Part shown: positions 671 through 33,255 of the stretch, one piece after another
Layout: every line of letters starts with the position of its first letter
How positions within the stretch are numbered: the stretch's first letter is position 1
Origin: Alphaproteobacteria bacterium
GTDB taxonomy: Bacteria; Pseudomonadota; Alphaproteobacteria; SMXQ01
Assembly: GCA_038145705.1 (NCBI GenBank)
Contig: JAYQQF010000011.1
Location: 43,753 to 107,752 of the forward strand
Length of the DNA stretch: 64,000 nucleotides
Direction: 5' to 3'
Made by a program: the position numbers and the translations under genes
The notes under the pieces: generated by a model
What the model was told of the DNA's origin: nothing
Database searches by the model: none
Seen by the model: the letters and a program-made list of their open reading frames with translations, nothing else

Positions 671-697
671 GGCTTCCTCCGTTCAGGCGCTTGCAGG

Positions 698-6329: not shown

Positions 6330-6515
6330 GACTGGCCTCCCCGGGCCGGGCTTTCCCGGCCTCGTGATTATCGGTCAAGGGGCACGGCCAGAGCCGAGAC
6401 CCACGCTTTCTTGACCCTCGATTTCGAGTTCCTTAGTCTAATATTCGAAAGCGATTTCCCAAATCAAAAAACAAGCGACCGGCAACCCGGCACTTGCGTC
6501 TGCGAGGACCGCCCC

Positions 6516-11123: not shown

Positions 11124-11135
11124 TCACGGCGCAAC

Positions 11136-12227
11136 ATGAGCAACCCGATCATTGAAATAGAGGGCCTCGGCAAATCCTTCGGCAGCGTGCGCGCGCTCGA
11201 CGGCGTCGGCTTTGCCATCGCCAAGGGCGAGGTCTTCACGCTGCTCGGCCCGTCGGGCTGCGGCAAATCGACCACCCTGCGCATCGTCGCCGGACTGGAA
11301 GATGCCAGCGAAGGCGAGATCCGCCTGTCGGGGCGCACTATTTATTCCTCGACACGGCGCATCAACCTGCCGCCGGAAAAGCGCAACATGGGCATGGTGT
11401 TCCAGTCCTACGCCATCTGGCCGCACATGACAGTGGCAGAAAACGTGGGCTACCCGCTGAAACTCCGTCGCCTGCCCGCGGCGGAAATCCGCGACCGCGT
11501 CGCCCGCGCCCTCAAGGCGGTCGAACTGGAGGCACAGGCCGACCGCGACGCACCGAAACTGTCTGGCGGGCAGCAGCAGCGTGTGGCGCTGGCGCGCGCG
11601 CTGGTCTACGAGCCGGAAGTGCTGCTGCTGGACGAACCGCTGTCGAACCTCGACGTCAAGCTGCGCGAGCAGATGCGCTTCGAGCTGAAACTTCTGCAGG
11701 AACGGCTCAACCTCACCATCATCTACGTCACCCACGACCAGTCGGAAGCGCTGAGCCTGTCGGATCGCATCGCACTGATGAACTTCGGCAGGATCGAACA
11801 GGTCGGCACCCCGTTCGAGCTGTATGAAAAGCCGAAGACGGAATTCGTGCGCGACTTCCTCGGCAAGACCATCACCCTGTCGGGCCGCCTTATCGATGTC
11901 GAAGGCGGCCGCGCGCGCATCGCCCTTCCCGGCACCTCGGGACCGCTGTCCTGCCCTGCGGGCGAGCGCACCTTGCCGTCTGCGGGCAGCGATATCGTCG
12001 TCGCCATACGGCCCGAACGGGTCCGCCTCGTTCTCGACGGGCAGGCGCCGACAAACCTCCAGGGGCGCATCGAGACCGTGCTTTACCAGGGCGAGCGGAC
12101 GGAATGCCTGGTGCGCGTCGGCGAGCAGATCGTCACCGTCTACGGGCCGCCCGAGACGGCCGGGCTGCGCCAGCGCGACGTTGCCCTCCTTCTGCCGGAA
12201 GAGGCGATCAGCCTGTGGCCGAGATAG
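11136..12227 (+). CDS. ABC transporter ATP-binding protein (FbpC/PotA-like)
   Basis: Walker A GPSGCGKST, LSGGQQQRVALARAL, Walker B LLLDEP, C-terminal TOBE domain; paralog of 5217..6329. Confidence 0.9.
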   Translation: MSNPIIEIEGLGKSFGSVRALDGVGFAIAKGEVFTLLGPSGCGKSTTLRIVAGLEDASEGEIRLSGRTIYSSTRRINLPPEKRNMGMVFQSYAIWPHMTVAENVGYPLKLRRLPAAEIRDRVARALKAVELEAQADRDAPKLSGGQQQRVALARALVYEPEVLLLDEPLSNLDVKLREQMRFELKLLQERLNLTIIYVTHDQSEALSLSDRIALMNFGRIEQVGTPFELYEKPKTEFVRDFLGKTITLSGRLIDVEGGRARIALPGTSGPLSCPAGERTLPSAGSDIVVAIRPERVRLVLDGQAPTNLQGRIETVLYQGERTECLVRVGEQIVTVYGPPETAGLRQRDVALLLPEEAISLWPR

Positions 12228-13942
12228 CCTTGCCAGAAGCGGGCTCGCGCGCCCGCCGCCTCTTTGAATTCCGCACGCTGCTGTTCGCGGCGGTGCTGCT
12301 GACGACGCTGTTCCTCGTCCTCTATCCCGTCGTCCTGATCGTCTTTTACAGTTTTTCCGCAGCGGAAACCGGCGCCGATTTCGTCTTCGGGCTGGACGCC
12401 TGGCAGCGCGCCCTGCGCGAGCCGGCGATGTTCGGCACCATCATCAATACCGTGAAGCTGCTGGTCGCCATCAACCTGATTTCCTTTCCCGTCGCCATCG
12501 TCATTTCATGGGTGCTGGCTCGCACGGATATCCCGTGGCGCGGCGGGCTGGAGTTCATGTTCTGGATTTCGTTCTTCCTGCCGTCGCTCTCGGTGACGCT
12601 CGGCTGGATCATGTGCCTTGACCCCGAATACGGGCTCTTGAACAAGCTGGTGATGTTCATCTTCCCCTTCATCGAGGAAGCGCCGTTCAACATCTATTCG
12701 TTCTGGGGCATCGTGTGGGCGCATCTCGGCGCCAATGCCATCGCGGTCAAGGTGATGCTGCTGACGCCGACCTTCCGCAACATCGATTCCTCGCTCGAGG
12801 AAGCTTCGCGGGTGGCAGGCGCCGGCCGTCTCGGCACCCTTGCGCGTATCGTCGTGCCCGCCATGGCGCCGGCGCTGATCGCCATCCTGCTGATGGCGAT
12901 GATCCGCGCCATGCAGTCCTTCGAAATCGAGTTGGTTCTGGGACCGGCGTTCCAGTTCTACGTCTATTCGACGAAGGTCTATACCCTGATCGCGCAGGAG
13001 CCGCCGGAATTCGGCTCCGCCTCCGCGCTTGCAACGCTGGGCCTCGCCGCCATCCTGCCGCTGATCTTCGCCCAGCGCTGGATCACCTCGCGCCGCCAGT
13101 ACGCGACGCTGACAGGCAAGCTGCAGACCCAGCCCGTCCGGCTCGGGCCGTGGCGTATACCGGTATTCCTCGCCGTGCTCACGGTCGTGCTGCTGCTGAC
13201 CGTGGTGCCGCTGGTCTTCGTCGGGCTGGCCTCGACCATGAAGCTGTTCGGCTTCTTCAACATTCCCGATCCCTACACCTTCGATCACTGGGTCACGGTG
13301 CTGACCGACGAAACCTTCGGTCAGTCGGTGACGAACACGCTGGGCATGGCGGGCGGGGCCGGAATCCTGTCGGTCGTGCTTTTCTCGCTGGTCGCCTATT
13401 TCACCGTACGCACCACTTTCAAGGCGCGCGCCGTTCTCGACTTCGTGTCCTGGCTGCCCTTCGCTGTCCCCGGCATCCTGTTCGGCGTCGGCCTCTTGTT
13501 CGTGTTCCTGGAATCGCCGCTGTTCCGGCCGCTTTACGGCACCATGTGGCTGCTGATCCTTGCCACCGTCATCAGTTCGATGACGCTCGGCGTCCAGATC
13601 ATCAAGTCGAACATGATGCAGCTCGGCAACGAGCTGGAAGAAGCCTCGCGCGTCGCAGGCGCTACCTGGTGGCATACCTTTACCCGCGTCGTGCTGCCGA
13701 TCATGGTGCCGGTGCTGCTGCTGGTCGGCATCATGAACTTCATTTCGGCGGCGCGCGACATCGCCTCGGTGGCGCTGGTGGCGACGGCGGAAACCAAGAC
13801 CCTCGCCCTTCTGCAGCTCGACTACATGGTGGAGGGCCGCTACGAGGCGGCCTCGGTCGCATCCTTCGTCGTCATCGTCCTGTCGACGGGGATCGCCCTT
13901 CTCGCCCGCGCGCTTGGCTTGCGCATCGGCATTCGCAACTAG
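12215..13942 (+). CDS. ABC transporter permease, fused two-domain (FbpB-like)
   Basis: ORF 12104..13942; GTG at 12215 gives (M)AEIALPEAGSRARRL, mirroring MAEVGITPAAKPGFLRRL of paralog 3496..5229, with the same 13-nt overlap with the ATPase stop. Confidence 0.75.
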   Translation: MAEIALPEAGSRARRLFEFRTLLFAAVLLTTLFLVLYPVVLIVFYSFSAAETGADFVFGLDAWQRALREPAMFGTIINTVKLLVAINLISFPVAIVISWVLARTDIPWRGGLEFMFWISFFLPSLSVTLGWIMCLDPEYGLLNKLVMFIFPFIEEAPFNIYSFWGIVWAHLGANAIAVKVMLLTPTFRNIDSSLEEASRVAGAGRLGTLARIVVPAMAPALIAILLMAMIRAMQSFEIELVLGPAFQFYVYSTKVYTLIAQEPPEFGSASALATLGLAAILPLIFAQRWITSRRQYATLTGKLQTQPVRLGPWRIPVFLAVLTVVLLLTVVPLVFVGLASTMKLFGFFNIPDPYTFDHWVTVLTDETFGQSVTNTLGMAGGAGILSVVLFSLVAYFTVRTTFKARAVLDFVSWLPFAVPGILFGVGLLFVFLESPLFRPLYGTMWLLILATVISSMTLGVQIIKSNMMQLGNELEEASRVAGATWWHTFTRVVLPIMVPVLLLVGIMNFISAARDIASVALVATAETKTLALLQLDYMVEGRYEAASVASFVVIVLSTGIALLARALGLRIGIRN

Positions 13943-14925
13943 GTATCGCGGAACTCCGGCAGAAACAGGTCATCGACGGGGATTTCCCTGTCGGTAAAGC
14001 CCTGCTCGTGCATGTAGCGCACCAGCGTCGCCAGAGTCTTGCGGTTGGCGGCGAGACCATAGGGCCATGGATCGCTGCCGAACAGGCGCTCGATCTCCGC
14101 CAGATCGTCGAGCAGCCACGGCAGCATCACGTGCTGGCCGTTCTGGGAGGCAAGCCTTCGCCGCGCCTCGGCCTTGGCGCGCCCGCAGGCGTCAAAAAAA
14201 CGCGCCGCCAGCCACGGGTTGGCCTCGTGCATGGCGCGGCGAATAACGACGAGATGCATGATCGGGAAAATTCCGGTGCGGCGGAAATAGTCGGCCTCGC
14301 GCGCCCGGAAATCGGGGAAGAGCCGCACGATTTCGGGATGCGCCGCGACCGCTTCGTCAACGAAGGTACCGAGAATGGCGTCGATTTCCCCCGCCGCCAG
14401 CAGTTCGGCCAGGGAACGCCCGCTGTCGTTCGCCTCGATCGCGGGCGGATGGCGCATGGGGCTTGCCGACGGATCGCCATGCCCGCCCGGCTGCATGACG
14501 GAACCTTCGATCCAGCGGAAGCTCGCGCAATCGACGCCGTATTCATCGGCAAGCATGCCGCGAATCCAGATCGCCGCGGTCTGGGTATAGAGCGGCACGC
14601 CGACGCGCCGGCCTTCCAGATCGCGGGGCTCGCGCACCGGGCCGTCCCTGCGCACGCAGATGAAGCCGTGGCGGAACATCCGCGACGGGAAAACCGGCAA
14701 CGCGACGAAGGGTTCCTTTCCCCAGTCGCGCAGCGCAATGAACTCGGAGCAGGAGAATTCGGACACGTCGAAGTCATCGCCGCCCGCCAGCCGGTCGAAA
14801 ATGAGCCGCGGCGGCCACATGGTCTCGCCCGCGATCTCGACCCCTTCGATACGCACGGAGCCGTCATGCAACCCCTCGAACCTGTCGTAGGGCCCGGAAG
14901 CGAAGTTCAGGCGAAGCGGCGGCAT
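13939..14925 (-). CDS. 4,5-dihydroxyphthalate decarboxylase-like protein (PhtD-like, PBP/NMT1 fold), paralog 1
   Basis: 328 aa, no signal peptide; conserved PVFPSRMFRH and GEIDA blocks shared with paralogs at 35064 and 37855; family assignment from recall, not searched. Confidence 0.5.
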   Translation of the reverse strand: MPPLRLNFASGPYDRFEGLHDGSVRIEGVEIAGETMWPPRLIFDRLAGGDDFDVSEFSCSEFIALRDWGKEPFVALPVFPSRMFRHGFICVRRDGPVREPRDLEGRRVGVPLYTQTAAIWIRGMLADEYGVDCASFRWIEGSVMQPGGHGDPSASPMRHPPAIEANDSGRSLAELLAAGEIDAILGTFVDEAVAAHPEIVRLFPDFRAREADYFRRTGIFPIMHLVVIRRAMHEANPWLAARFFDACGRAKAEARRRLASQNGQHVMLPWLLDDLAEIERLFGSDPWPYGLAANRKTLATLVRYMHEQGFTDREIPVDDLFLPEFRDT

Positions 14926-15013
14926 CGGCGGCGGTACTCCCTGTTGGCGGCGCCAGCATAAGGGCGCGCGCCGCTGCTTGCCAGCGGGAGGGGCGCTGGA
15001 CTAGGCTGCCCCC

Positions 15014-15883
15014 ATGTCCCTGACCGCAGCCAGCAACGCCGACGCCCCCTTCTCGATCGAGCCCATCGGGCCGACCATCGGGGCGGAGATTCACGGCCTC
15101 GACCTCCGCCAGCCGCTCAATGGGGCCACCTTCGCGGCACTTGAGGCGGCGCTGATCGAACAGAAGGTCATCTACCTGCGCGACCAGGCCATGACCACCG
15201 CCGAGCACGTCGCCTTCGGCCGTCGCTTCGGCGACCTGGAAGTTCATCCCTTCCGCCCGGAAGGCGAATTTCCGGAAATCATGGTGCTGGACAACCACAA
15301 GGACAACCCGGTGCTGTCCACCGACGTCTGGCATTCGGACACCACGTTCCGCGAATGCCCGACCAAGTATTCGATCCTGCGCTGCCTGCGCATGCCCGCC
15401 GTCGGCGGCGATACCCTGTGGGCGGACATGTGCGCGGCCTATGACGGGCTCAGCCCCGCCATCAGGAAGCTGATCGACGGCCTCGAAGCCGTCCACGATT
15501 TCCAGAATTTCCGCGCGCTTTACGGCAAGGACGAAGAGAGCCAGAAGAAGCTGCGCCGGATGGAAGAGCTTTACCCGAACCCGACCCATCCCGTGGTGCG
15601 CACGCATCCCGTGAACGGGCGCAAGGTGCTCTACGTCAATCCGCAGTTCACGCTTTACATCAAGGGCATGAACGAGGGCGAGAGCAAGGCCCTGCTGGAA
15701 TTGCTCTACGAGCAGACCCACGTGCCGGAATACCAGTTCCGCCTGCGCTGGCGGCCGGGCACCATCGTGCTGTGGGACAACACGTCGACCCAGCACTACG
15801 CGGCCAACGACTATTATCCGAACCGCCGCACCATGGAGCGCGTCGCCGTCATCGGCGACAGGCCCTTCTACCGGCCGTCCTGA
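15014..15883 (+). CDS. TauD/TfdA-family Fe(II)/2-oxoglutarate-dependent dioxygenase
   Basis: 289 aa; HxD...H facial triad context (VWHSDTTF, RVAVIGDRPFY), typical taurine dioxygenase-like length. Confidence 0.75.
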   Translation: MSLTAASNADAPFSIEPIGPTIGAEIHGLDLRQPLNGATFAALEAALIEQKVIYLRDQAMTTAEHVAFGRRFGDLEVHPFRPEGEFPEIMVLDNHKDNPVLSTDVWHSDTTFRECPTKYSILRCLRMPAVGGDTLWADMCAAYDGLSPAIRKLIDGLEAVHDFQNFRALYGKDEESQKKLRRMEELYPNPTHPVVRTHPVNGRKVLYVNPQFTLYIKGMNEGESKALLELLYEQTHVPEYQFRLRWRPGTIVLWDNTSTQHYAANDYYPNRRTMERVAVIGDRPFYRPS

Positions 15884-15892
15884 CTTCCGGTT

Positions 15893-16669
15893 CTAGCGCT
15901 GTCGCAGGGGCACGCGTTCGCGGGCAAACAGCGGGTTGCCCGCGCCTTCGGCGCGGGCGAGCTTGCGGCAGTAATAATCGTAGAGAACCTGTCCGCCGAC
16001 GATGGCCGGATCGAGCTGGGTGCCTTCTTCCAGCTTGTGGGCCAGTTCGCTTTCCGGCGGCGTCGTGAACTTCAGGTTCGAGCCGTTGATGATCAGACTT
16101 TCCTGGCACATTTTCTCGACGGCGATGGCAATCAGCACCGGGTCCTTGATCGTCGGGCCACAGGTGACCAGCCCGTGGTTGCGCAGCAGCACCGCGTGGT
16201 GGGGACCCATGACCTCGACCATTTCGCACGCCATTTCCTGGGTGCCGACCAGGCCCGAGGAATCTTCGAAGCGCGGCGTGCGCAGGGGCTGCGTCGTTGC
16301 CCGCGGCACGATGGTGGCAAGCGGCTCTTCCGATGCCGAATAAATGGACGCATAGAACGGATGGGTGTGCGCGGTGGCGTCGATATCGGGGCGCAGGCGC
16401 ATCAGCTCCGAATGGATTGGCCATTCGCCGTGCGGCTTGCCGTCGCCCGCGAGCTGGCGGCCCTCGAAGTCGAGCAGCACGAAATCGCGGCGATCGACCA
16501 CCTCGCCGAGAGCGATGCCGGCGCGCTTCATCCACAAGCCACGGCCTTCGGGGTCGCGCAGCGCCATGTGGCCGACGACTCGGTCGCCATGGCCTTCGAG
16601 CTCCAGCACCCGGCAGGCCCGCGCCAGTTCATCGAGATCTGCGGCGAGCGCGTTGCTCATCTCGGCCAT
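15893..16669 (-). CDS. class II aldolase/adducin family protein (paralog of 698..1456)
   Basis: ORF 15893..16768 trimmed to MAEMSNALAADLDELARACRVLELEGHGD...; HTHP metal site. Confidence 0.75.
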   Translation of the reverse strand: MAEMSNALAADLDELARACRVLELEGHGDRVVGHMALRDPEGRGLWMKRAGIALGEVVDRRDFVLLDFEGRQLAGDGKPHGEWPIHSELMRLRPDIDATAHTHPFYASIYSASEEPLATIVPRATTQPLRTPRFEDSSGLVGTQEMACEMVEVMGPHHAVLLRNHGLVTCGPTIKDPVLIAIAVEKMCQESLIINGSNLKFTTPPESELAHKLEEGTQLDPAIVGGQVLYDYYCRKLARAEGAGNPLFARERVPLRQR

Positions 16670-16782
16670 CGGTGTCTCTCCTCCATTTTCCGACCCGCAC
16701 GCTAGCGGCGGGGGCCGGACCTGTCCAGTGCGGCGGTTTGCCGCGAACGAAGGCTGGGATATGCTCATCAGGCAGGGAGAAA

Positions 16783-18375
16783 ATGACCAAAAAACCCAAC
16801 TTCGTTCTGTTCATCACCGACCAGCACCGGGCCGATCACCTCGGCTGCTACGGCAATAAACTGCTGCGCACGCCCGCCATCGACGCGCTCGCGGCGCGCG
16901 GCACGCGCTTCGACAATTTCCATGTCGCCAGCCCCGTCTGCATGCCCAACCGCGCCTCCCTGATGACGGGACGGATGCCGTCGCTGCATGGCGTGCGGCA
17001 CAACGGCATTCCGCTCTCCTTCGAGCACGTCACCTTCGTCGAACTGCTGGCTGCGGCAGGCTATGCAACGGCGCTCGCCGGCAAGTCGCACCTGCAGAAC
17101 TTCACCGGCCGGGCGCCCAATTTCGATTTCAAGGAACGCCCCGGCTACGCCGCCCCGCCGCCCGACCTGCGCGAAGCGGACAGGCGCCAGCGCCGGGGCG
17201 CGCCATACGAATCGGAAAACGACGCGCTCTGGCGCGAGGGCGGCCACGGGGTGGCGCTGCCTTTTTACGGCTTCGCCCGCGCCGATATCTGCACCGGCCA
17301 CGGCGACCAGGTCGGCGGCGATTACCGCAACTGGCTGGCCGCACGCCACCCCGACCCCGACAGCCTGACCGGTCCCGCCAATGCCCTGCCCGCAGGCAAC
17401 CGTAAAGCGCCGCAGTGCTGGCGCACCCGCGTGCCCGAGGAACTTTACCCGACGGCCTATGTCGAGGACCGCGCCGCGGATTTCCTGCGCATCCATGCCA
17501 CAGCGGACGATGGACGACCGTTCTTTCTGCAGGTGTCCTTTCCCGACCCCCATCATCCGTTCACGCCGCCCGGCCGGTTCTGGGACATGTATGATCCGCG
17601 CGATATCGAATTGCCCGAAAATTTCTCCTCGGGCGACGTGGCACCGCTCAAGCATTTGCGCGCCGAACTTGCCGCGGGCAGCGCCGTGCGCGACCAGCCG
17701 ACCCTGCCTTGGGCGGCGACGGAAGATGAAGCGCGCGTCATCATCGCCGCCACCTACGGCATGATCGCCATGGTAGACGAAGCCATCGGCCGCCTGACGG
17801 CGCTGATCAACGAGCTTGGCTTCGGCGACGACACGGTAGTGATGTTCACCGCCGATCACGGCGATTACATGGGCGATCACGGGCTGATGACCAAGTACCT
17901 GCTGCACTACCGCAGCCTGACGCGGGTGCCGTTCATCGTTGCCGATCCGGGCCGCAAGGCCGGCGACACGCGTGGCGATCTCGCCTCCACCCTCGACATT
18001 CCGGCCTCGATCCTTGGCCGCGCCGGTCTGCAGCCGTTCAACGGATTGCAGGGGCGCGATCTGTTCGACGGTGCCGTGGGCGCGCCGGACAGCCTGTTGA
18101 TCGAGGAGGACGCCTCGCTGCCGATGTTCGGAGAAAACAGTCGCGAGCGCGTGCGCACGCTGGTCACGGGCCGCTGGCGGCTGACGCACCATCAGGGGGC
18201 AGTCCCGGATGCCGCGTGGTGGGAGCTTTACGACCTCGCGATCGATCCCGGCGAAAGCCGCAATCTGTGGAATGATCCATCAGCCCAACAAGTCGCCCGC
18301 GAGCTGATGGCGCGCATGATCGCGCGCATGACCGAACTGCAGGACACGAGCCCGCTGCCCACGGGCCGTGCCTGA
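16783..18375 (+). CDS. Cys-type sulfatase (arylsulfatase family, formylglycine-dependent)
   Basis: ORF 16297..18375 trimmed to ATG 16783 (RBS AGGGAGA): MTKKPNFVLFITDQHRADHLGCYGN...; CMPNRASLMTGR = CxPxR FGly motif; FTADHGD metal site. Confidence 0.8.
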   Translation: MTKKPNFVLFITDQHRADHLGCYGNKLLRTPAIDALAARGTRFDNFHVASPVCMPNRASLMTGRMPSLHGVRHNGIPLSFEHVTFVELLAAAGYATALAGKSHLQNFTGRAPNFDFKERPGYAAPPPDLREADRRQRRGAPYESENDALWREGGHGVALPFYGFARADICTGHGDQVGGDYRNWLAARHPDPDSLTGPANALPAGNRKAPQCWRTRVPEELYPTAYVEDRAADFLRIHATADDGRPFFLQVSFPDPHHPFTPPGRFWDMYDPRDIELPENFSSGDVAPLKHLRAELAAGSAVRDQPTLPWAATEDEARVIIAATYGMIAMVDEAIGRLTALINELGFGDDTVVMFTADHGDYMGDHGLMTKYLLHYRSLTRVPFIVADPGRKAGDTRGDLASTLDIPASILGRAGLQPFNGLQGRDLFDGAVGAPDSLLIEEDASLPMFGENSRERVRTLVTGRWRLTHHQGAVPDAAWWELYDLAIDPGESRNLWNDPSAQQVARELMARMIARMTELQDTSPLPTGRA

Positions 18376-18415
18376 AAAACAAGAAGGGCGTCGAACACCA
18401 GAGGGGGAGCCGCTC

Positions 18416-19714
18416 ATGCTGTCATCGGAACTGAACGATCTGATTACCCTGACCGGGCCCGGCACGCCGGGCGGCAACATGTTTCGCCGCTTCTGGATAC
18501 CCGCCTGCCTGTCGAAGGAAGTGGCCGAGCGCGAGGGCCCGCCCGTGCGCGTACGCCTGCTGGGCGAAAAGCTCGTCGCCTTCCGCGGCCGCGACGGCCG
18601 CGTAGCACTCATCGGCGAGCACTGCCCGCACAGGGGCGCCTCGCTCTATTTCGGGCGAAACGAGGACGGCGGCCTGCGCTGCCTCTATCATGGCTGGCTG
18701 GTCAACGCCGAGGGCCGCGTGACCGATGCCCCCGCCGAACCCGATCCTTCCGTCATCTGCCGCGACGCGCGGGGCATCGCCTATCCCACCCATGAAGTGG
18801 CGGGGATGGTTTTCACCTACATGGGCCCGCCCGAGAAAAAACCGCTGTTCCCGGCCTACCGCTTCACCACCGCGCCCGAAAATCACATGTACGTCACCAA
18901 GTCGCTGCAGGACTGCAATTACCTGCAGGGGCTGGAAGGGGAATGCGATTCGGCACATCTGTCCTTCCTGCACCGGGCGCTGCGCGGCCCGCTCGCCAAC
19001 CGCACCATCTTCACCAGCCGCAAGCCGCAGTATTCATATGAGCGCACCGACTTCGGCATCCGCCTGATCGCCACCCGCGAAACCGACGATGACCGGCTTT
19101 ACGTCCGGATATCGTCCTTCGTGCTGCCCTATGGCTGCTGGGTACCGGCGCGCAACCGCGAACTTCATATGCACGTGCCCGCCGACGACACCCACAGCTG
19201 GCGCTTCGATCTGGGGGTGCTCGATCACCCTGTTTCCGAGACTCCCAGCATCGACGACCGCGACCAGTTTCTGGACGAGGATTTCCGCAAGATTCCCAAC
19301 ATGTCGAACGATTACCTGCAGGACCGCGAGGTCCAGAAGCTCGACAATTTTTCAGGCATGAAAGGGTTTCTCGCGCAGGATTCGGCGGTCACCGAAAGCA
19401 TGGGGCCGCGCTTCGACCGCTCGCAGGAGTACCTCGGCCAGAGCGATGCCGGCATCGTCGCCGTGCGCAACCTGATGGTGAAGACCATTCGCGATCTGGA
19501 AAAGGGTATCGAGCCGCCGCAGGTGGTGACGAGGGCCGAAGACAACGTCTTCACCCATGTCGATACCTGTCAGGTCACCATCGACAAGGGCGAGGACTGG
19601 CGCAGGCACCTGCCCCATGTCGCCGCACCCAAGGCGGTGCCGGGGGCGCCATTGCCGCCCTTCCGCGATCCCGAGGGCAGCCTCAGGCGCGAAACCGGGA
19701 CCCACGTGCGTTAG
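18416..19714 (+). CDS. Rieske [2Fe-2S] non-heme iron oxygenase alpha subunit (alpha-only), paralog 3
   Basis: ATG 18416 preceded by GAGGGGGAG SD; MLSSELNDLITLTGPGTPGGNMFRRFWIP...CPHRGASL...CLYHGW; 40 nt downstream of sulfatase stop. Confidence 0.85.
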   Translation: MLSSELNDLITLTGPGTPGGNMFRRFWIPACLSKEVAEREGPPVRVRLLGEKLVAFRGRDGRVALIGEHCPHRGASLYFGRNEDGGLRCLYHGWLVNAEGRVTDAPAEPDPSVICRDARGIAYPTHEVAGMVFTYMGPPEKKPLFPAYRFTTAPENHMYVTKSLQDCNYLQGLEGECDSAHLSFLHRALRGPLANRTIFTSRKPQYSYERTDFGIRLIATRETDDDRLYVRISSFVLPYGCWVPARNRELHMHVPADDTHSWRFDLGVLDHPVSETPSIDDRDQFLDEDFRKIPNMSNDYLQDREVQKLDNFSGMKGFLAQDSAVTESMGPRFDRSQEYLGQSDAGIVAVRNLMVKTIRDLEKGIEPPQVVTRAEDNVFTHVDTCQVTIDKGEDWRRHLPHVAAPKAVPGAPLPPFRDPEGSLRRETGTHVR

Positions 19715-19721
19715 GGAAACC

Positions 19722-20441
19722 TCAGGCCTGGGCGCGGCGCAGCACGGCGTCGCCCGGCATCTGGCCGATGGCCTTGAACGACGAAATCGAGGCGTTCTCG
19801 ACATGGGCACGGGCCGCGGCACGGGCCGCCGTTATGTCGCGCGCCTCGATGGCGGCAACCAGCGCATCCACCTCGCCGATGCTTTCGGCCTTGCGCTCGG
19901 CGCGCGAGATGGACGCCGCGCGCATCGGACTGGTGCGCAGATGCAGCGTCATCAGCAGGTCGAAGGCCACCGGGTTGCGCGCACCTTCGCATAAGGCGTC
20001 GTAATAGATTTTCTTGGCGTCCAGGATAGCTTCCAGGTCGGCCAGCTGATAGGCGCGCTTGAGACCTTCGCCCGCTTCGCGGAATGCCGCGCAATCGGGC
20101 GCGCTCGCGCGTTCGATGAATTGTTCCGCGATCAGGGCTTCGAGCTCGGCGCGGATGCGATAGATGTTTTCGGCATCTTCCGTCGAAATCGGCGTGACCA
20201 TCAGCCCGCGTACGGTGGAATTGGAAATGACCCGCAGCGCCTCCAGCTCGCGCAGGGCTTCGCGCAGGCAGGTGCGGCTAACGCCGAGCTGCGCGCAGAG
20301 GTCCTTCTCGATCAGGCGTTCGCCCGGCTTGAGCACGCCCATTTCGATGGCCCGGCGCAGCGCCGTGATGATCTTCTGGCGCAGCGGCGCGAATTCGGTC
20401 TTGAGCGGCATCAGCTTGGTCGCAGCTTCGGATACGCTCAT
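19722..20441 (-). CDS. GntR-family transcriptional regulator (FadR/FCD subfamily)
   Basis: 239 aa; N-terminal wHTH (LKPGERLIEKDLCAQLGVSRTCLREALRELE) plus C-terminal FCD-like helical domain. Confidence 0.8.
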   Translation of the reverse strand: MSVSEAATKLMPLKTEFAPLRQKIITALRRAIEMGVLKPGERLIEKDLCAQLGVSRTCLREALRELEALRVISNSTVRGLMVTPISTEDAENIYRIRAELEALIAEQFIERASAPDCAAFREAGEGLKRAYQLADLEAILDAKKIYYDALCEGARNPVAFDLLMTLHLRTSPMRAASISRAERKAESIGEVDALVAAIEARDITAARAAARAHVENASISSFKAIGQMPGDAVLRRAQA

Positions 20442-20517
20442 GGTACGGGCCTTTCTTCGGGGGTTGAACGAAACGGCGTCCCGCCCCGGGGACGGGACGC
20501 CGCAATCACCTTGAAGA

Positions 20518-21621
20518 TCAGGACTTCTTGTCCTTGTTCTTCGACTTCTTCTTCACGTCACAGTTGACCTTGCAGTTCTTCTTGTAGCCCTTCATCGCTT
20601 CCTGGGCCTGTGCCACCAGATGCTTCGGCGTCCCCAGGGCTTCGCGGGTCATGGCATCGAGCGCCTCGCCCGTTTCGGGATCGATGTTGGCCTTCTGCTT
20701 CCCGGCATCGGCAAGGAAGCCCGCGTCCTTCGTCATCCTGGCGAAGCCGTCACGCAGGGCCTTCAGGCGGTCCGCGGGCAGGCCTTCCGGCGCGTTGAAT
20801 GCACGGCCGATGAAACCGCCGATCGACAGGAACTTCAGGATCTGCTGCTTTTCCTTGTCCTTGGTCAGTTCATGCATGAGGGGAAGGTTGGGCAGTTCCT
20901 TCTCGCGCTTGAGGCCGACCTGGACGATCGGGATCAGCTTGCCGGTCTTGAAGTCGTCGAAGTAACGGATGCGCCAGCTGGCCCAGGCGCTCGACTGTGC
21001 CTGGATTTCGCCACGGATCATCGCCAGCGTCTGCGCCGCCGAACCGCGGTAGCCGCAGATCATCTGGAAGTTGGCACCGAGCAGCGACATCATCGCGCGC
21101 GGCATGATGTAGCTCTGCGACCCCGCGCCTGTACAGCCGACAATGACCTTGGTTTTCTGTGCATCGGCGAAGGTCTTGACGTTGGCGTCACTGCGTACCG
21201 CAAAGACCGGATTGATCGGCGTAAAGCTGCCGATATAAGGCAGCTTGGCCGCGTCGAACTTGGCCTTCGACGGGAACAGGAGCTGGCTGACGGCCAGCGT
21301 GTCGGCGAACATGCCGATCATCGAGCCGTCCTTCGGCGCCACGTTGGCGAAGTAGTTGGCGGCCACCAGGCTGCCGGCGCCCGCCATGTTCTGAACGATG
21401 ACGTTGGGCTTGCCGGGGATGAACTTGCCGTAATGCCGTGCGGCGAGCTGGGCGTAGGCGGTGTAGGAACCCGCCGGCGGATAGCCGACGAGGATCTTCA
21501 TCGTCTTGCCCTTGTAGAAATCGGCAACCGAATCGGCCTTGGCCGGGGTGCCGGAAGCCGCGAAGGCCAGCGCCGCGACGGCGCCGATGGCGGCAGGTAC
21601 GAGATTTTTCAGACCACGCAT
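20518..21621 (-). CDS. TctC/Bug-family tripartite tricarboxylate transporter substrate-binding protein with Lys-rich, Cys-containing C-terminal tail
   Basis: ORF 20518..21921 trimmed to MRGLKNLVPAAIGAVAALAFAASGTPAKA (signal peptide, RBS GGGAG); TctC signature GKPNVIVQNMAGAGS; unusual tail ...KGYKKNCKVNCDVKKKSKNKDKKS. Confidence 0.75.
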   Translation of the reverse strand: MRGLKNLVPAAIGAVAALAFAASGTPAKADSVADFYKGKTMKILVGYPPAGSYTAYAQLAARHYGKFIPGKPNVIVQNMAGAGSLVAANYFANVAPKDGSMIGMFADTLAVSQLLFPSKAKFDAAKLPYIGSFTPINPVFAVRSDANVKTFADAQKTKVIVGCTGAGSQSYIMPRAMMSLLGANFQMICGYRGSAAQTLAMIRGEIQAQSSAWASWRIRYFDDFKTGKLIPIVQVGLKREKELPNLPLMHELTKDKEKQQILKFLSIGGFIGRAFNAPEGLPADRLKALRDGFARMTKDAGFLADAGKQKANIDPETGEALDAMTREALGTPKHLVAQAQEAMKGYKKNCKVNCDVKKKSKNKDKKS

Positions 21622-21755
21622 GATCAATCTCCCATTCTGTCCTGTTGATGTCCTCGATTCTGGCGCCCCTTGGTGGGGCTGTTGTATCGGGACCGGGTTG
21701 TTTGGGCCGGCAATGCCGGTACGCGTGCTGGTTACTCCTCCTCTGCTAGTGAATG

Positions 21756-23462
21756 TTACTTCGGATCGCCCTCCACCTCGCGACAGGGGGTCTCCGGAAT
21801 GATTCCCGAAGCGCGGCGCTGGGCCGTGCGACGGCCATTCTCGGCATAGTCGCCCTTGACCGCACGTTCGGCAGCGCGGTCCCAGGCCTCGAACCAGTCG
21901 CCGAGATCGTAGCCGTGCCACGGCGACTGGGCCTTGAGCTGCGGCAGGCCGAGCTTCTCCCAGAGCCGCTTCGCGCCTTCCATGTATTCCTTCTTCGGCA
22001 GCGCGAGCGGCGGCATGTCGCCCTTGAGGGTGGCGTCGATCAGCAGCGTGCCGTCCTCGTTGACGTTGCCCGATTTCGGCCCGTGGCCGCGCGGGCGATG
22101 GTGCAGGACCTCGATGTCGGTCAGCACGTTGGCGCGATAGGCCATCGCCCAGAACACCGCATCGCCGTCATCGGGATCGATGTCGTCGTTGACCGCGATC
22201 ACGTACTTGCCGCAGTCGGCGCGTAGTACGGCGGCGCCGTAAAGCGCGCGCCAGACCTCGGTGCGCGAGGTGGCTCGGTCCATGACCAGGAAGATCACCT
22301 TGCGGATATTGGTGAGCGGCTCGTGCAGCGCCACGCGCTTGACGCCGCGCAGGCCAAGCTGGTCGCGCAGGTGGGCCAGGAACATCGGCTCGTAGGCGAC
22401 GCGCTTGATGACGCTCGATTCGCTCGGCGTGACCTGCGAGATGATCGAGGCCAGCACCGGCTTCTTCTTCATGGTGATCGCCGTCACCTCGAAGATCATG
22501 TTGAAATCCTCGAGCGCGATATGGCCGTGGGATTCGCCGAAGGGGGCTTCCGGTTCAAGATAGGTGGTATCTACCTTGCCCTCGATCACCAGTTCGGCTT
22601 CCGCCGGCACCATCAGGTCGTTGGTCTTGCACTTGACCATGTTGATGGGCGCACCCGCGATGCCGCCGGCCACGTCGGCCTCGTCGCGGTGGGTGCCGAG
22701 CTTCTGCGGGCCGAGATAGGCAACAATGGGCGGCGCGCCGACGACGACGGCACACGGCATCGTCTTGGCGCCCTTCTTCTGGTACTTGAGCCAGTGCAGG
22801 TAGCCGCCGGCACCGCCTTCGCGGCTCGCCATGCGCACGGCGAGGCGGTTCGTCGCCTTGAGCCCGGCGCGATAAGTGCCCATGTTCTGCACGCCGGTTT
22901 CGGGATCGACGGTGACGACATTGGTCGCCGTGAAATAGGGTGCCGCGTCGAAACCAGGTGTGGAGATCGGCACCGGCAGGGCGTCGAGGCCCTTGTTGTC
23001 GCCGAGCAGGTCCTTGCCGGTCCACACCACTTCCTGGCAGGGCGCCGTCTTGACCACCTTGGGCGGGATCGGCTTCGCCATGCCGCGTTCCCAGCGCGCA
23101 CCGATCTCTTCAAGGGGCGCGTTCATGCCGATGGCATAGATATCCTGGTTGGCGGCCAGCGCGCCGACCACCACGGGCATGTCGAACTTGCGCCCACGCG
23201 CGTCGGTGACGTTGGTAAACAGGAAGGCCTTGCGCTCGCCCTCCTTGAGCCCGCCGCGGAACTGCCAGCGCACCAGCGGGTGCAACTCGGTGTCCTTGTT
23301 GACGGGCTCATCGATGGTGACAAGAAGCCCGGCCGCCTCGAGTGCCGCGAGGTGCTCCTGCAAATCGCGGTAGCCGCGCTTGGGCAGGGCGGGAATGCGG
23401 CCCTTGCCCGCCTTTGCGGACTTCGTCTTCTTGGTCTTGTCGAGCGCGGCTTTCTTCGCCAT
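21756..23462 (-). CDS. UbiD-family (prFMN-dependent) decarboxylase with Lys-rich N-terminal extension
   Basis: ORF 21756..23588 trimmed to MAKKAALDKTKKTKSAKAGKGRIPALPKRGYRDLQEHLAALEAAG...; UbiD core about 530 aa; no UbiX-like gene in window. Confidence 0.75.
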   Translation of the reverse strand: MAKKAALDKTKKTKSAKAGKGRIPALPKRGYRDLQEHLAALEAAGLLVTIDEPVNKDTELHPLVRWQFRGGLKEGERKAFLFTNVTDARGRKFDMPVVVGALAANQDIYAIGMNAPLEEIGARWERGMAKPIPPKVVKTAPCQEVVWTGKDLLGDNKGLDALPVPISTPGFDAAPYFTATNVVTVDPETGVQNMGTYRAGLKATNRLAVRMASREGGAGGYLHWLKYQKKGAKTMPCAVVVGAPPIVAYLGPQKLGTHRDEADVAGGIAGAPINMVKCKTNDLMVPAEAELVIEGKVDTTYLEPEAPFGESHGHIALEDFNMIFEVTAITMKKKPVLASIISQVTPSESSVIKRVAYEPMFLAHLRDQLGLRGVKRVALHEPLTNIRKVIFLVMDRATSRTEVWRALYGAAVLRADCGKYVIAVNDDIDPDDGDAVFWAMAYRANVLTDIEVLHHRPRGHGPKSGNVNEDGTLLIDATLKGDMPPLALPKKEYMEGAKRLWEKLGLPQLKAQSPWHGYDLGDWFEAWDRAAERAVKGDYAENGRRTAQRRASGIIPETPCREVEGDPK

Positions 23463-23521
23463 TTCGCTGGTGCTCCGGAACAAAAATGGGGATGGCCCCG
23501 GCAAGCCGGGGCTATCACATC

Positions 23522-25288: not shown

Positions 25289-25404
25289 GATGTCTCCGTT
25301 CGGATGGGGTGTTGTATATGACGATCATAATGTATTACTAAAACCAGTCCACCTTGTGGACCCCCACAGTCACGATCACCGCAAATTTTTCAGATAGGCC
25401 GAAG

Positions 25405-28739: not shown

Positions 28740-28760
28740 CACGCATCAGGGGGAAAGATC

Positions 28761-29234: not shown

Positions 29235-29238
29235 GTTT

Positions 29239-33227: not shown

Positions 33228-33255
33228 TCTTCCCTTCCTGACAGGAGACAACAGC

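What the first reader, a model, noticed from the sequence alone, without database searches (positions are those of the whole stretch)
15014..19714. Candidate organosulfur/aryl-sulfate catabolic module: TauD dioxygenase, Cys-type sulfatase co-transcribed with a Rieske oxygenase
A formylglycine-type sulfatase (CMPNR motif) is followed 40 nt later by a Rieske oxygenase with its own strong SD, so the two are likely one transcript. A TauD-family sulfonate/alpha-KG dioxygenase and a class II aldolase are divergent neighbours. Desulfation followed by ring hydroxylation would fit catabolism of aromatic sulfate esters or sulfonated aromatics. I do not know a described sulfatase-Rieske operon. No FGE/anSME maturase is in the window.
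Basis: inference. Interest (0 to 1): 0.6.

Follow-up and report, generated by a model that had tools for sequence, protein, structure and literature searches.

The report
Sulfatase block beside phthalate-type Rieske oxygenase
The sulfatase and the Rieske oxygenase are real, intact neighbouring genes, but comparison with relatives shows the sulfatase belongs to a separable four-gene block set into an ordinary aromatic-acid breakdown island, so this is not a dedicated sulfatase-Rieske pathway.

Summary
Five intact genes lie at 15014-19714: a TauD-like dioxygenase, a class II aldolase-fold protein, a cytoplasmic Cys-type sulfatase (CMPNR), a 40-nt gap with a Shine-Dalgarno site, and a Rieske oxygenase.

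The Rieske is a phthalate/isophthalate-dioxygenase-type enzyme. It belongs to a larger aromatic-carboxylate island with an ABC importer, a LigB ring-cleavage enzyme and several decarboxylase-type genes. Orthologues at 86% and 77% identity have no sulfatase upstream, and their active-site motifs are unchanged.

The sulfatase travels with three neighbours: a 4,5-dihydroxyphthalate-decarboxylase homologue, the TauD-like gene and the aldolase-fold gene. In one relative this four-gene block stands alone, with no Rieske within 10 kb. Sulfatase-Rieske adjacency occurs in five lineages of one clade of uncultured Alphaproteobacteria. It is absent from 79 other species genomes that carry the sulfatase family.

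Co-transcription in this window is plausible but looks secondary: relatives keep an AT-rich element upstream of the Rieske that is missing here.

Best reading: an accessory desulfation block that feeds sulfated hydroxy-aromatic acids into the island. The substrate is unknown. This is a new variant of a known kind, of modest interest.

The parts
9996..13942 (+). ABC importer of the island: solute-binding protein (9996-11123), ATPase (11136-12227) and fused double permease (12215-13942).
   Evidence: Pfam and synteny. In L008 the Rieske follows this permease directly.
13939..14925 (-). 328-aa cytoplasmic protein with a solute-binding-protein fold, a homologue of 4,5-dihydroxyphthalate decarboxylase. 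First gene of the four-gene block.
   Evidence: About 40% identity to plasmid genes annotated as 4,5-dihydroxyphthalate decarboxylase. Weak Pfam NMT1 match. Conserved in L001, L003, L093 and L099.
15014..15883 (+). TauD/TfdA-family Fe(II)/2-oxoglutarate dioxygenase that is not a canonical taurine dioxygenase.
   Evidence: Pfam TauD 2.8e-67. NCBIfam taurine dioxygenase scores 306.6 bits, below the 313 cut-off. The Fe, 2-oxoglutarate and anion-binding residues are kept; Y73->R, N95->T and S158 deleted, in all six block lineages.
15893..16669 (-). Class II aldolase/adducin-fold metalloprotein (258 aa), transcribed divergently from the sulfatase.
   Evidence: Pfam Aldolase_II 3.6e-32. Weak similarity to 3,4-dihydroxyphthalate decarboxylase PhtC (82.5 bits against a cut-off of 200). 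Best PDB match is pyruvic oxime dioxygenase, 5.6e-20. The divergent pairing with the sulfatase is kept down to L006 (AldII 69%, sulfatase 62%).
16699..16779 (+). Conserved intergenic elements upstream of the sulfatase: ACGCTAGC (16699-16706), CCTGTCCAGT (16720-16729), TTGCCG (16738-16743), a 16-nt spacer, TATGCT (16760-16765), and the Shine-Dalgarno site CAGGGAG (16773-16779).
   Evidence: Alignment of the intergenic regions from window, L001, L003, L093, L005 and L006. The hexamers fall below the consensus-scan threshold, so the promoter assignment is an inference from conservation.
16783..18375 (+). Cytoplasmic Cys-type (formylglycine) S1 sulfatase, 530 aa. CMPNR motif at 16939-16953.
   Evidence: Pfam Sulfatase 2.2e-38. 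Best PDB match is the arylsulfatase SpAS1, 4upi, 3.3e-57. D13, C53, R57, K101, H103, D358, H359 and K371 are invariant in 14 homologues. dN/dS 0.135.
18376..18415 (+). 40-nt sulfatase-Rieske spacer with the Shine-Dalgarno site GAGGGGGAG (18401-18409). It has no terminator. It also lacks the AT-rich -10-like element that relatives carry upstream of the Rieske.
18416..19714 (+). Phthalate-family (alpha-only) Rieske non-haem iron oxygenase, 432 aa.
   Evidence: Pfam Rieske plus LigXa_C. PDB isophthalate dioxygenase 9ina 1.6e-78 and phthalate dioxygenase 7fjl 2.2e-76. The protein has CPH...CLYH, H181/H186/D322, and R231/H251, which match the IPDO carboxylate-binding residues R234/H257. dN/dS 0.05.
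19722..20441 (-). GntR/FCD-family regulator of the island.
   Evidence: Pfam. Conserved next to the Rieske in L001, L005, L008 and L093.
20518..25288 (-). Island genes downstream: TctC-type binding protein (20518-21621), UbiD-family decarboxylase (21756-23462) and a thiamine-diphosphate enzyme (23522-25288).
   Evidence: Syntenic in L001, L003, L005 and L008.
8982..9890 (-). LigB-type extradiol ring-cleavage dioxygenase of the island.
   Evidence: Pfam LigB 9e-21. Syntenic in L001, L003, L008 and L009.

Best explanation
The region is part of a chromosomal, paralogue-rich island for breaking down aromatic (poly)carboxylic acids in an uncultured alphaproteobacterium.

The Rieske gene (18416-19714) is the island's own phthalate/isophthalate-dioxygenase-type oxygenase. 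Its lasting partners are the ABC importer, decarboxylase-type genes (PhtD-like and class II aldolase-fold) and a LigB ring-cleavage enzyme.

The sulfatase belongs instead to a separable four-gene accessory block: a PhtD-like decarboxylase homologue, a TauD-like dioxygenase, a class II aldolase-fold protein and the sulfatase. In one sub-lineage this block lies between the importer and the Rieske.

Proposed mechanism (inferred): a sulfated hydroxy-aromatic acid is imported. The cytoplasmic formylglycine sulfatase hydrolyses the aryl sulfate ester. The freed phenolic hydroxyl makes the acid a substrate for the non-oxidative decarboxylases, which need an ortho or para hydroxyl. The products then join the island's Rieske/LigB route.

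In this window and its closest relative, the Rieske has lost the AT-rich upstream element that other relatives keep. It has also lost its downstream aldolase-fold partner. It is therefore probably read through from the sulfatase promoter. That would make co-transcription a secondary fusion and not the signature of a two-enzyme pathway.

Shown: gene identities, intactness, purifying selection, separability of block and Rieske, and lineage-restricted adjacency. Inferred: substrate class, order of reactions, promoter assignments.
For: The Rieske belongs to the island:
- L008 (Rieske 77%) has the order permease, Rieske, AldII with no sulfatase block.
- L095 (Rieske 86%) has PhtD-like, a 10-nt gap, Rieske, AldII.
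- L009 and L010 (66% and 59%) have the ABC importer, Rieske and AldII.
- Active-site motifs are identical with or without the sulfatase. Only 2 alignment columns differ.

The block is separable:
- L099 carries PhtD-like 76%, TauD 81%, AldII 82% and sulfatase 70%, with no Rieske within 10 kb.
- L006 keeps the divergent AldII-sulfatase pair without the Rieske.

Adjacency is lineage-restricted. It occurs in the window and in the lineages of L001 (with L002, L011 and L094), L003 (with L004), L093 and L005 only. None of 79 other species loci shows it.

The aromatic-carboxylate theme is supported by several results:
- The Rieske matches IPDO/PDO and keeps the carboxylate-binding Arg and His.
- A PhtD homologue is present.
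- The aldolase-fold gene resembles PhtC.
- UbiD, a thiamine-diphosphate enzyme, LigB, RraA-like and HpcH aldolases are in the window.
- The window holds three Rieske, three PhtD-like and two aldolase-fold paralogues.

The sulfatase looks catalytically competent and cytoplasmic. All genes are under purifying selection.

On transcription, the spacer has no terminator. The AT-rich CG(C/T)TAnAAT element is present upstream of the Rieske in L003, L093, L005 and L008, and absent from the 40-nt and 36-nt gaps of the window and L001. The sulfatase has its own conserved upstream elements.
Against: - No substrate is known for this sulfatase subfamily, so aryl sulfate specificity is inferred from 4upi (SpAS1) only.
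- The class II aldolase-fold protein's nearest solved structure is a dioxygenase, not a decarboxylase.
- The TauD-like enzyme has no assigned role in the scheme.
- No shared operator motif links the sulfatase promoter region to other island promoters.
- The direction of the event (block gained, or lost in L008, L095 and L099) is not resolved by the trees.
- The L095 contig is only 2.4 kb, so a sulfatase further upstream cannot be excluded there.
- The L099 sulfatase carries a frameshift. This may be an assembly error or a decaying gene.
- No reductase for the Rieske and no FGE are in the window.
Confidence: 0.55

Rival explanations
1. The sulfatase and Rieske are a dedicated, co-transcribed two-step unit: the sulfatase removes sulfate from an aromatic sulfate ester, and the Rieske hydroxylates that same product.
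For: The two genes share a strand with a 40-nt gap, a strong Shine-Dalgarno site and no terminator. Adjacency is kept in five lineages down to 67% sulfatase and 78% Rieske identity. The Rieske keeps the carboxylate-binding residues, and the sulfatase family is generally linked to carboxylate-type transporters. The literature searches found no description of such an operon.
Against: The Rieske occurs without the sulfatase at 86% and 77% identity, with unchanged active-site motifs. The block occurs without the Rieske in L099. The pair is conserved no better than the whole ~20-gene island. Relatives appear to keep a separate upstream element for the Rieske, with gaps of 85-155 nt.
Confidence: 0.2
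2. Sulfur scavenging. The sulfatase and the TauD-like dioxygenase are sulfate-starvation genes that release sulfate or sulfite from organosulfur compounds for assimilation, as in the Pseudomonas ats/tau systems. Their position beside aromatic-catabolic genes would then be incidental.
For: An S1 sulfatase and a TauD/AtsK-family enzyme lie side by side next to an ABC importer. The TauD-like enzyme keeps the His and Arg that bind the sulfonate or sulfate group in TauD and AtsK. These two genes have the highest dN/dS in the cluster.
Against: The sulfatase's constant partner is an aldolase-fold gene, and the block includes a PhtD-like decarboxylase homologue. The local regulator is GntR/FCD, not the CysB/Cbl type. 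Cys plus Met content of the sulfatase (3.2%) and TauD (3.5%) is not lower than in neighbouring genes. No ssu/tauABC-type transporter genes are in the block. The ABC importer also occurs in clusters that lack the block.
Confidence: 0.15
3. The 'sulfatase' is an alkaline-phosphatase-superfamily hydrolase for another ester class, such as phosphonate monoesters or phosphodiesters, and not a sulfate esterase.
For: PDB matches include phosphonate monoester hydrolases (2w8s 5.6e-35, 2vqr 2.2e-34). NCBIfam gives a weak PehA match. The GntR regulator and the binding protein give weak matches to phosphonate-associated models, all far below their cut-offs.
Against: The best matches are arylsulfatase SpAS1 and choline sulfatases. 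The G-K101-S-H103 motif matches the Lys/His pair of arylsulfatases; from my own recollection, phosphonate monoester hydrolases have Tyr/Thr at this site. The phosphonate-related model scores are 3-7 times below their cut-offs.
Confidence: 0.05

Closest known systems
Phthalate and isophthalate dioxygenase systems (PDO and IPDO of Comamonas testosteroni KF1; pht/oph clusters with 4,5-dihydroxyphthalate decarboxylase)
   Same: The Rieske is an alpha-only oxygenase with a LigXa_C-type catalytic domain, matching IPDO at E 1.6e-78 and PDO at 2.2e-76. The IPDO carboxylate-binding Arg and His are conserved. A homologue of 4,5-dihydroxyphthalate decarboxylase and a relative of 3,4-dihydroxyphthalate decarboxylase lie in the same cluster.
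   Different: The window has no cognate reductase and no cis-dihydrodiol dehydrogenase. The substrate is unknown. A sulfatase block lies immediately upstream. The residue after the first Fe-ligand His is Leu, where IPDO has Val178.
Arylsulfatase SpAS1 of Ruegeria (Silicibacter) pomeroyi (PDB 4UPI), and the cytoplasmic arylsulfatase / choline sulfatase / phosphonate monoester hydrolase group of S1 enzymes
   Same: It is the best solved relative (E 3.3e-57). Both are cytoplasmic, use a Cys-type CxPxR nucleophile motif and have a C-terminal extension. SpAS1 hydrolyses 4-nitrophenyl sulfate (bioRxiv 10.1101/479162).
   Different: The relationship is distant: NCBIfam arylsulfatase scores 191 bits against a cut-off of 481. 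The natural substrate of both enzymes is unknown. Here the gene sits in an aromatic-acid island with a conserved divergent aldolase-fold partner.
Pseudomonas sulfate-ester utilisation genes (AtsA arylsulfatase, AtsK 2-oxoglutarate-dependent alkylsulfatase, ABC importer)
   Same: A hydrolytic S1 sulfatase and a TauD/AtsK-family dioxygenase are encoded close together near an ABC importer. The anion-binding His and Arg of AtsK/TauD are conserved in the TauD-like protein (PMC5066984).
   Different: The Pseudomonas genes serve sulfur scavenging under sulfate limitation (my own knowledge). Here the partners are decarboxylase-type and ring-oxidising genes under a GntR/FCD regulator. The TauD-like protein is closer to TauD (269 bits) than to AtsK (159 bits).
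4-Sulfobenzoate and toluenesulfonate oxygenases (PsbA, TsaM), phthalate-family Rieske enzymes acting on organosulfur aromatics
   Same: A phthalate-family Rieske oxygenase works in a pathway that removes a sulfur oxyanion from an aromatic acid (my own knowledge; not tested here).
   Different: Those enzymes cleave C-S bonds of sulfonates oxygenolytically and need no sulfatase. Here the sulfur-removing candidate is an ester hydrolase. Similarity to PsbA or TsaM was not tested.
Choline-O-sulfate operon betICBA (BetC sulfatase co-transcribed with the oxidising enzymes for its product)
   Same: A cytoplasmic Cys-type sulfatase is transcribed together with oxidative enzymes that consume the desulfated product. 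BetC is a detectable homologue (6fny 7.6e-33; TIGR03417 181 bits).
   Different: The score is below the choline-sulfatase cut-off (181 against 433). There are no bet genes, and the downstream oxidase is an aromatic Rieske oxygenase.

Membership tests
S1 formylglycine-dependent sulfatases | C/S-x-P-x-R nucleophile motif followed by xxxxTG | tested here: met
   C53-M-P-N-R57-A-S-L-M-T-G-R. C53, N56, R57, T62 and G63 are invariant in 14 homologues.
S1 formylglycine-dependent sulfatases | Sulfatase-fold domain with the metal-binding and catalytic residues (N-terminal Asp, Lys-x-His, Asp-His, distal Lys) | tested here: met
   Pfam PF00884 2.2e-38. D13, K101, H103, D358, H359 and K371 are invariant. 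The mapping of these residues to catalytic roles rests on my own knowledge of Pseudomonas AtsA.
S1 formylglycine-dependent sulfatases | Post-translational conversion of Cys to formylglycine by a maturase (FGE or anSME) | not testable with these tools
   No FGE or radical-SAM maturase was found among the window ORFs scanned. The rest of the genome is not available.
S1 formylglycine-dependent sulfatases | Sulfate-ester hydrolase activity, and the substrate class (aryl or alkyl) | not testable with these tools
   The only lead is the nearest solved relative, an arylsulfatase. NCBIfam arylsulfatase and choline-sulfatase equivalogs both score below their cut-offs.
Phthalate-family (alpha-only) Rieske oxygenases | Rieske CxH...CxxH cluster ligands plus the 2-His-1-carboxylate mononuclear iron site | tested here: met
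   C70-P-H72 ... C89-L-Y-H92; H181, H186 and D322. All are conserved in 10 homologues.
Phthalate-family (alpha-only) Rieske oxygenases | Close similarity to characterised phthalate or isophthalate dioxygenases, and no beta-subunit gene | tested here: met
   9ina 1.6e-78, 7fjl 2.2e-76, 7fhr 9.2e-72. The genes flanking the Rieske are the sulfatase and GntR.
Phthalate-family (alpha-only) Rieske oxygenases | Carboxylate-binding residues of the substrate pocket | tested here: inconclusive
   The equivalents of IPDO R234 and H257 (R231, H251) are conserved. The position equivalent to PDO R207 / IPDO L198 falls in an indel region and cannot be assigned.
Phthalate-family (alpha-only) Rieske oxygenases | A cognate flavin/[2Fe-2S] reductase | tested here: not met
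   No reductase domain was seen among the window ORFs scanned. It may be encoded elsewhere in the genome.
Taurine dioxygenase (TauD, NCBIfam NF007104 equivalog) | Score above the curated cut-off, and conserved taurine amine-binding residues (Tyr73, Asn95, Ser158) | tested here: not met
   306.6 bits, below the cut-off of 313. Y73->R81, N95->T103 and S158 deleted, in all six block lineages. The roles of these residues come from my own knowledge. The Fe and 2-oxoglutarate ligands and the anion-binding H70 and R270 equivalents are kept, so superfamily membership (PF02668, 2.8e-67) is met.
Sulfatase-Rieske operon (the claimed unit) | Same strand, short terminator-free spacer, downstream gene with its own ribosome-binding site | tested here: met
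   The gap is 40 nt with GAGGGGGAG, and no + strand terminator-like site lies in it.
Sulfatase-Rieske operon (the claimed unit) | Adjacency conserved wherever either orthologue occurs | tested here: not met
   Adjacency is present in five lineages. It is absent in L095, L008, L099 and L006, and in 79 of 80 species loci.
Sulfatase-Rieske operon (the claimed unit) | A single transcript | not testable with these tools
   This needs RT-PCR or RNA-seq across 18376-18415.
4,5-Dihydroxyphthalate decarboxylase family (the 328-aa protein) | Sequence similarity to Pht5/PhtD-type decarboxylases; cytoplasmic protein with a solute-binding-protein fold | tested here: inconclusive
   It is about 40% identical to genes annotated as 4,5-dihydroxyphthalate decarboxylase, but equally similar genes are annotated as ABC substrate-binding proteins. 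It has no signal peptide and no curated model hit.

The most novel reading that the evidence does not exclude
The four-gene block (PhtD-like, TauD-like, class II aldolase-fold, cytoplasmic sulfatase) is a dedicated carbon-catabolic module for sulfated aromatic carboxylic acids. Candidate substrates are the sulfooxy-benzoates, sulfooxy-phenylacetates and sulfooxy-cinnamates of seagrasses and green algae, or animal phase-II conjugates. In this reading, desulfation unmasks the phenolic hydroxyl that non-oxidative decarboxylases need. In this lineage the module has become transcriptionally fused to a phthalate-type Rieske oxygenase. That would be a first described bacterial pathway using an S1 sulfatase to gain carbon from small aromatic sulfate esters, as opposed to scavenging sulfur or degrading polysaccharide.
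Probability: 0.25. Interest if true: 0.55.

Novelty: new variant of a known kind. Interest (0 to 1): 0.32.

Why it matters
If the block really feeds sulfated phenolic acids into an aromatic-acid pathway, it would give a genetic handle on how free-living bacteria turn over small aromatic sulfate esters. Such compounds include plant and algal defence metabolites and excreted conjugates. Catabolic genes are essentially undescribed for them.

It would also give a first physiological context for a widespread, uncharacterised family of cytoplasmic sulfatases found beside TctC and TRAP transporter genes in many Proteobacteria.

As it stands, the finding is mainly a caution. Tight adjacency and likely co-transcription here reflect a lineage-specific insertion or fusion, not a conserved enzyme partnership.

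Tried and rejected
- Shared operator: I searched the window for the conserved CCTGTCCAGT motif from the sulfatase promoter region, allowing up to 2 mismatches. It gave 33 matches against 36 expected, with only the one exact site. There is no evidence of co-regulation with other island promoters.
- Consensus promoter scan of 13800-20600: 0 sigma-70-type sites. The promoter-like elements I describe rest on conservation only.
- Sulfur-starvation signature: Cys plus Met content of the sulfatase and TauD is not depleted relative to neighbours. This is a weak test and does not discriminate.
- Literature: searches for sulfatase with Rieske, UbiD or LigB, for arylsulfatase with ring-hydroxylating dioxygenase clusters, and for sulfated phenolic acid catabolism found no description of such a cluster. 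A SAR202 paper mentions both enzyme families, but in different clades and unlinked.
- Metagenome scan with the Rieske returned only 5 loci, too few for a frequency estimate.
- Gain or loss of the block: neighbour-joining trees of Rieske, permease, UbiD, TctC and GntR place L008 either as sister to L005 or outside the block-bearing group. The direction is unresolved.
- RNA fold of the spacer: z-score -1.13, so there is no notable structure.
- Recent horizontal transfer of the block: GC content of 14-18 kb (0.66) equals that of the flanks, so there is no compositional signal.

Full report
**1. What is in the sequence**

The window is 62-70% GC. Real genes stand out by third-position GC of 0.79-0.93. 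The flagged interval 15014-19714 holds these features:
- A TauD/TfdA-family dioxygenase, 15014-15883 on the + strand (Pfam 2.8e-67).
- A class II aldolase/adducin-fold gene on the - strand, 15893-16669 (3.6e-32). The start was chosen from the 258-aa orthologues and a GGAGGAGAG ribosome-binding site.
- A 530-aa sulfatase, 16783-18375 on the + strand (Pfam 2.2e-38).
- A 40-nt spacer containing GAGGGGGAG.
- A 432-aa Rieske plus LigXa_C oxygenase, 18416-19714 on the + strand.

The sulfatase starts MTKKPNFVLFITDQHRADH, so the metal-binding Asp is residue 13. That leaves no room for a signal peptide, and the enzyme is cytoplasmic. The motif C53-M-P-N-R57-ASLMTGR is the Cys-type formylglycine signature. 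D13, C53, R57, K101, H103, D358, H359 and K371 are invariant across 14 homologues of 54-88% identity.

No + strand terminator-like site lies in the spacer, and its predicted fold is unremarkable. One correction: TauD is on the same strand as the sulfatase and convergent with the aldolase-fold gene. Only the aldolase-fold gene is divergent from the sulfatase.

**2. What the individual proteins are**

*Rieske.* It is a phthalate-family, alpha-only oxygenase. Its best solved relatives are isophthalate dioxygenase IPDO of Comamonas testosteroni KF1 (9ina, 1.6e-78; identified through PMC12445078), phthalate dioxygenase 7fjl (2.2e-76) and 7fhr. That paper names R234 and H257 as the residues holding the two carboxylates of isophthalate. 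With the 23-residue tag offset of the PDB chain, both align to identical residues of the window protein, R231 and H251. The substrate is therefore very probably an aromatic carboxylate.

*Sulfatase.* Its best solved relative is SpAS1, the well-characterised arylsulfatase of Ruegeria pomeroyi (4upi, 3.3e-57; bioRxiv 10.1101/479162). Choline sulfatases and phosphonate monoester hydrolases follow. It reaches no curated NCBIfam cut-off: arylsulfatase scores 191 against 481, and choline sulfatase 181 against 433. It is thus an uncharacterised subfamily of the small-molecule, cytoplasmic branch of S1.

*TauD-like protein.* It is closest to E. coli TauD (268.8 bits) and scores 159 bits against AtsK. 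It falls just under the taurine-dioxygenase equivalog cut-off, 306.6 against 313. In the alignment to 1gqw, the Fe ligands (H99, D101, H255), the 2-oxoglutarate Arg266, and His70 and Arg270 are all kept. His70 and Arg270 bind the sulfonate in TauD, and their equivalents bind sulfate in AtsK (PMC5066984). The taurine amine-binding residues are replaced: Y73->R, N95->T and S158 deleted. The roles of these three residues come from my own knowledge of the TauD structure. The changes are invariant in all six lineages that carry the block. The enzyme is therefore not a canonical taurine dioxygenase. Because TfdA-type relatives use the same Arg for a carboxylate, it cannot be counted as firm evidence of organosulfur metabolism.

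*Aldolase-fold protein.* It shows only family-level similarity. The closest model is 3,4-dihydroxyphthalate decarboxylase PhtC, at 82.5 bits against a cut-off of 200. The nearest solved structure is pyruvic oxime dioxygenase, 5.6e-20.

*328-aa protein, 13939-14925 (- strand).* It has no signal peptide. It is about 40% identical to plasmid genes annotated as 4,5-dihydroxyphthalate decarboxylase.

**3. The surroundings**

The interval lies in a large chromosomal catabolic island. Ribosomal protein L21, Obg and ProB sit at the right end of the window. The island contains:
- a LigB extradiol dioxygenase, two binding proteins, an ABC ATPase and a fused permease;
- a GntR/FCD regulator and TctC-type binding proteins;
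- a UbiD-family decarboxylase and thiamine-diphosphate enzymes;
- a molybdenum hydroxylase large subunit;
- RraA-like and HpcH-type aldolases.

It is rich in paralogues: three Rieske/LigXa_C genes, three PhtD-like genes, two aldolase-fold genes (one again beside a Rieske, at 884-1414 and 2-682), two thiamine-diphosphate enzymes, three TctC genes, two ABC systems and two TauD-family genes. There is only one sulfatase. The theme is oxidation, decarboxylation and ring cleavage of aromatic (poly)carboxylates. I found no reductase for the Rieske enzymes and no FGE or anSME.

**4. Comparative test of the pair**

Sulfatase homologues number in the thousands. I read the context of ten sulfatase homologues and three Rieske homologues directly. 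I also scanned 80 species-representative genome loci.

The order TauD, aldolase-fold, sulfatase, Rieske is present in:
- the window;
- the L001/L002/L011/L094 lineage (sulfatase 88%; MAG Alphaproteobacteria SFB_Oligo_Co_118);
- L003/L004 (76%);
- L093 (73%);
- L005 (67%).

Each member also occurs without the other:
- Rieske at 86% identity (L095) is preceded, after 10 nt, by a PhtD-like paralogue and followed by an aldolase-fold gene.
- Rieske at 77% (L008) follows the ABC permease directly, in an otherwise syntenic island.
- Rieske at 66% and 59% (L009, L010) again sits with the ABC importer and an aldolase-fold gene.
- In L099, the four genes PhtD-like (76%), TauD-like (81%), aldolase-fold (82%) and sulfatase (70%) form the same alternating-strand block. 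There it lies between a two-component system and an ECF sigma gene, with no Rieske within 10 kb.
- In L006, only the divergent aldolase-fold/sulfatase pair persists (69% and 62%).
- Among the 79 other species loci (sulfatase 44-55%), none has the Rieske adjacent. The commonest neighbours are a TctC-type binding protein (28 loci), a LysR regulator (20) and a TAXI-TRAP transporter (13-15).

An alignment of ten Rieske proteins shows identical cluster, iron and substrate-pocket motifs whether or not a sulfatase is upstream. Only two columns separate the two groups.

I conclude that the stable units are (a) the island's importer, Rieske and decarboxylase set and (b) the four-gene block. Sulfatase-Rieske adjacency is what results when (b) lies between the permease and the Rieske. 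Trees do not settle whether the block was gained once, or lost in L008, L095 and L099.

**5. Transcription**

The aldolase-sulfatase intergenic region carries blocks conserved in five to six lineages: ACGCTAGC, CCTGTCCAGT, and TTGCCG-N16-TATGCT ahead of the ribosome-binding site. The hexamers are too weak for the consensus scan, so calling this a promoter is an inference from conservation.

Upstream of the Rieske, relatives with gaps of 77-155 nt (L003, L093, L005 and the sulfatase-less L008) share an AT-rich CG(C/T)TAnAAT element. In L093 it reads TGCTATAAT. The 40-nt and 36-nt gaps of the window and L001 lack it.

The same two genomes have also lost the aldolase-fold gene that overlaps the Rieske stop codon in L003, L093, L095, L008 and L010. 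They have further lost the Fer2 and aldolase-fold genes beside GntR.

So in this window the Rieske probably depends on read-through from the sulfatase. This looks like a derived, lineage-specific fusion.

**6. Are the genes functional?**

Between the window and L001, dS is 0.27-0.59 and dN/dS is 0.02-0.15 for all twelve genes compared. The Rieske is at 0.05, the sulfatase at 0.135 and TauD at 0.149. All are under purifying selection. The two 'sulfur' genes evolve two to three times faster at the protein level than the Rieske.

**7. Most likely mechanism and rivals**

*Best explanation (0.55).* The block is an accessory desulfation/decarboxylation module plugged into an aromatic-carboxylate island. 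A sulfated hydroxy-aromatic acid is imported and hydrolysed by the cytoplasmic sulfatase. The exposed hydroxyl lets the decarboxylase-type enzymes act, and the product enters the Rieske/LigB route.

Three things support this indirectly. The family is linked to carboxylate-type transporters. The sulfatase has constant decarboxylase-like partners. Sulfated phenolic acids exist in nature (papers listed). The substrate class and reaction order remain inferences.

*Rivals.*
It is weakened by the separability data.
- Sulfur scavenging by the sulfatase plus TauD (0.15). It is weakened by the partners, the regulator type and the absence of Cys/Met depletion, but it is not excluded.
- A non-sulfate ester hydrolase (0.05).

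**8. Comparison with what is known, and verdict**

Every protein belongs to a known superfamily. The island resembles phthalate/isophthalate clusters. The sulfatase-plus-TauD pairing recalls the Pseudomonas ats genes. A sulfatase co-transcribed with enzymes that oxidise its product has a precedent in betICBA.

I found no described cluster that joins an S1 sulfatase to aromatic-acid decarboxylase and oxygenase genes.

I rate it a new variant of a known kind, with modest interest (0.32). The striking feature, a sulfatase-Rieske operon, is real in this window but lineage-specific and probably secondary. The more interesting object is the four-gene block and the wider uncharacterised cytoplasmic sulfatase family, whose substrates remain unknown.

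Noticed in passing
window 2-682 (-), 884-1414 (-), 6402-7793 (+): Two further phthalate-family Rieske genes are in the window. The left-end one is cut by the window edge and is preceded by a second class II aldolase-fold gene. This repeats the Rieske plus aldolase-fold pairing seen in relatives.
   Followed up: partly
window 33124-38865: There is a second thiamine-diphosphate enzyme (50% identical to the one at 23522-25288). Two more PhtD-like paralogues (35064-36059 and 37798-38865, 35-36% identity) flank a GMC oxidoreductase. The island looks built from duplicated modules.
   Followed up: partly
L003 9600-9754, L093 6734-6853, L005 3764-3848, L008 9924-10000, compared with window 18376-18415: An AT-rich CG(C/T)TAnAAT element (TGCTATAAT in L093) lies 45-85 nt upstream of the Rieske start in four lineages, whatever the upstream gene is. 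It is deleted in the window and L001. In L003 the string AATGATTCCAC occurs both here and upstream of the sulfatase.
   Followed up: partly
window 16699-16765: The aldolase-sulfatase intergenic region holds conserved blocks: ACGCTAGC, CCTGTCCAGT and TTGCCG-N16-TATGCT. CTGTCCAG is kept even in L006. The motif is not repeated elsewhere in the window.
   Followed up: yes
window 15014-15883 and its orthologues in L001, L003, L093, L005 and L099: The TauD-like enzyme keeps the anion-binding His and Arg but has Arg in place of TauD Tyr73, Thr in place of Asn95, and lacks Ser158. This holds in every lineage. It suggests a substrate with an anionic group, not an amino group, at the distal end.
   Followed up: partly
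L012-L090 (79 species genomes): The wider sulfatase family (44-56% identity) is spread through Alpha-, Beta- and Gammaproteobacteria. It usually sits beside a TctC-type binding protein, a TAXI-TRAP transporter or a LysR regulator. This is an uncharacterised cytoplasmic sulfatase family, probably acting on an imported anionic small molecule.
   Followed up: partly
L092 7714-21584: A 62%-identical sulfatase lies within 10 kb of a UbiD gene, an aldehyde dehydrogenase, a methionine sulfoxide reductase, a TauD-family gene, DsbA, a TauE sulfite-exporter homologue, a 39%-identical Rieske/LigXa_C gene and a TAXI-TRAP transporter. This is a looser co-occurrence of the same enzyme families.
   Followed up: no
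L099 10001-11719: The sulfatase of the stand-alone block is split over two reading frames at about residue 460. This is either an assembly error or a decaying gene.
   Followed up: no
window 25354-30042 and L099 1-2572: The gene run molybdenum hydroxylase large subunit, NMT1-like protein, cupin, HpcH aldolase is conserved at 75-87% identity between the window and L099. The first two genes recur (Mo subunit 59% identical) next to the sulfatase in L006. No Fer2 small-subunit gene lies beside GntR, where L005, L008 and L093 have one.
   Followed up: no
window 47849-54969: There is a hydantoinase/oxoprolinase A and B pair, an Amidohydro_2 protein and a second, distant TauD-family gene (30% identity). 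They form a neighbouring, apparently unrelated catabolic cluster.
   Followed up: no
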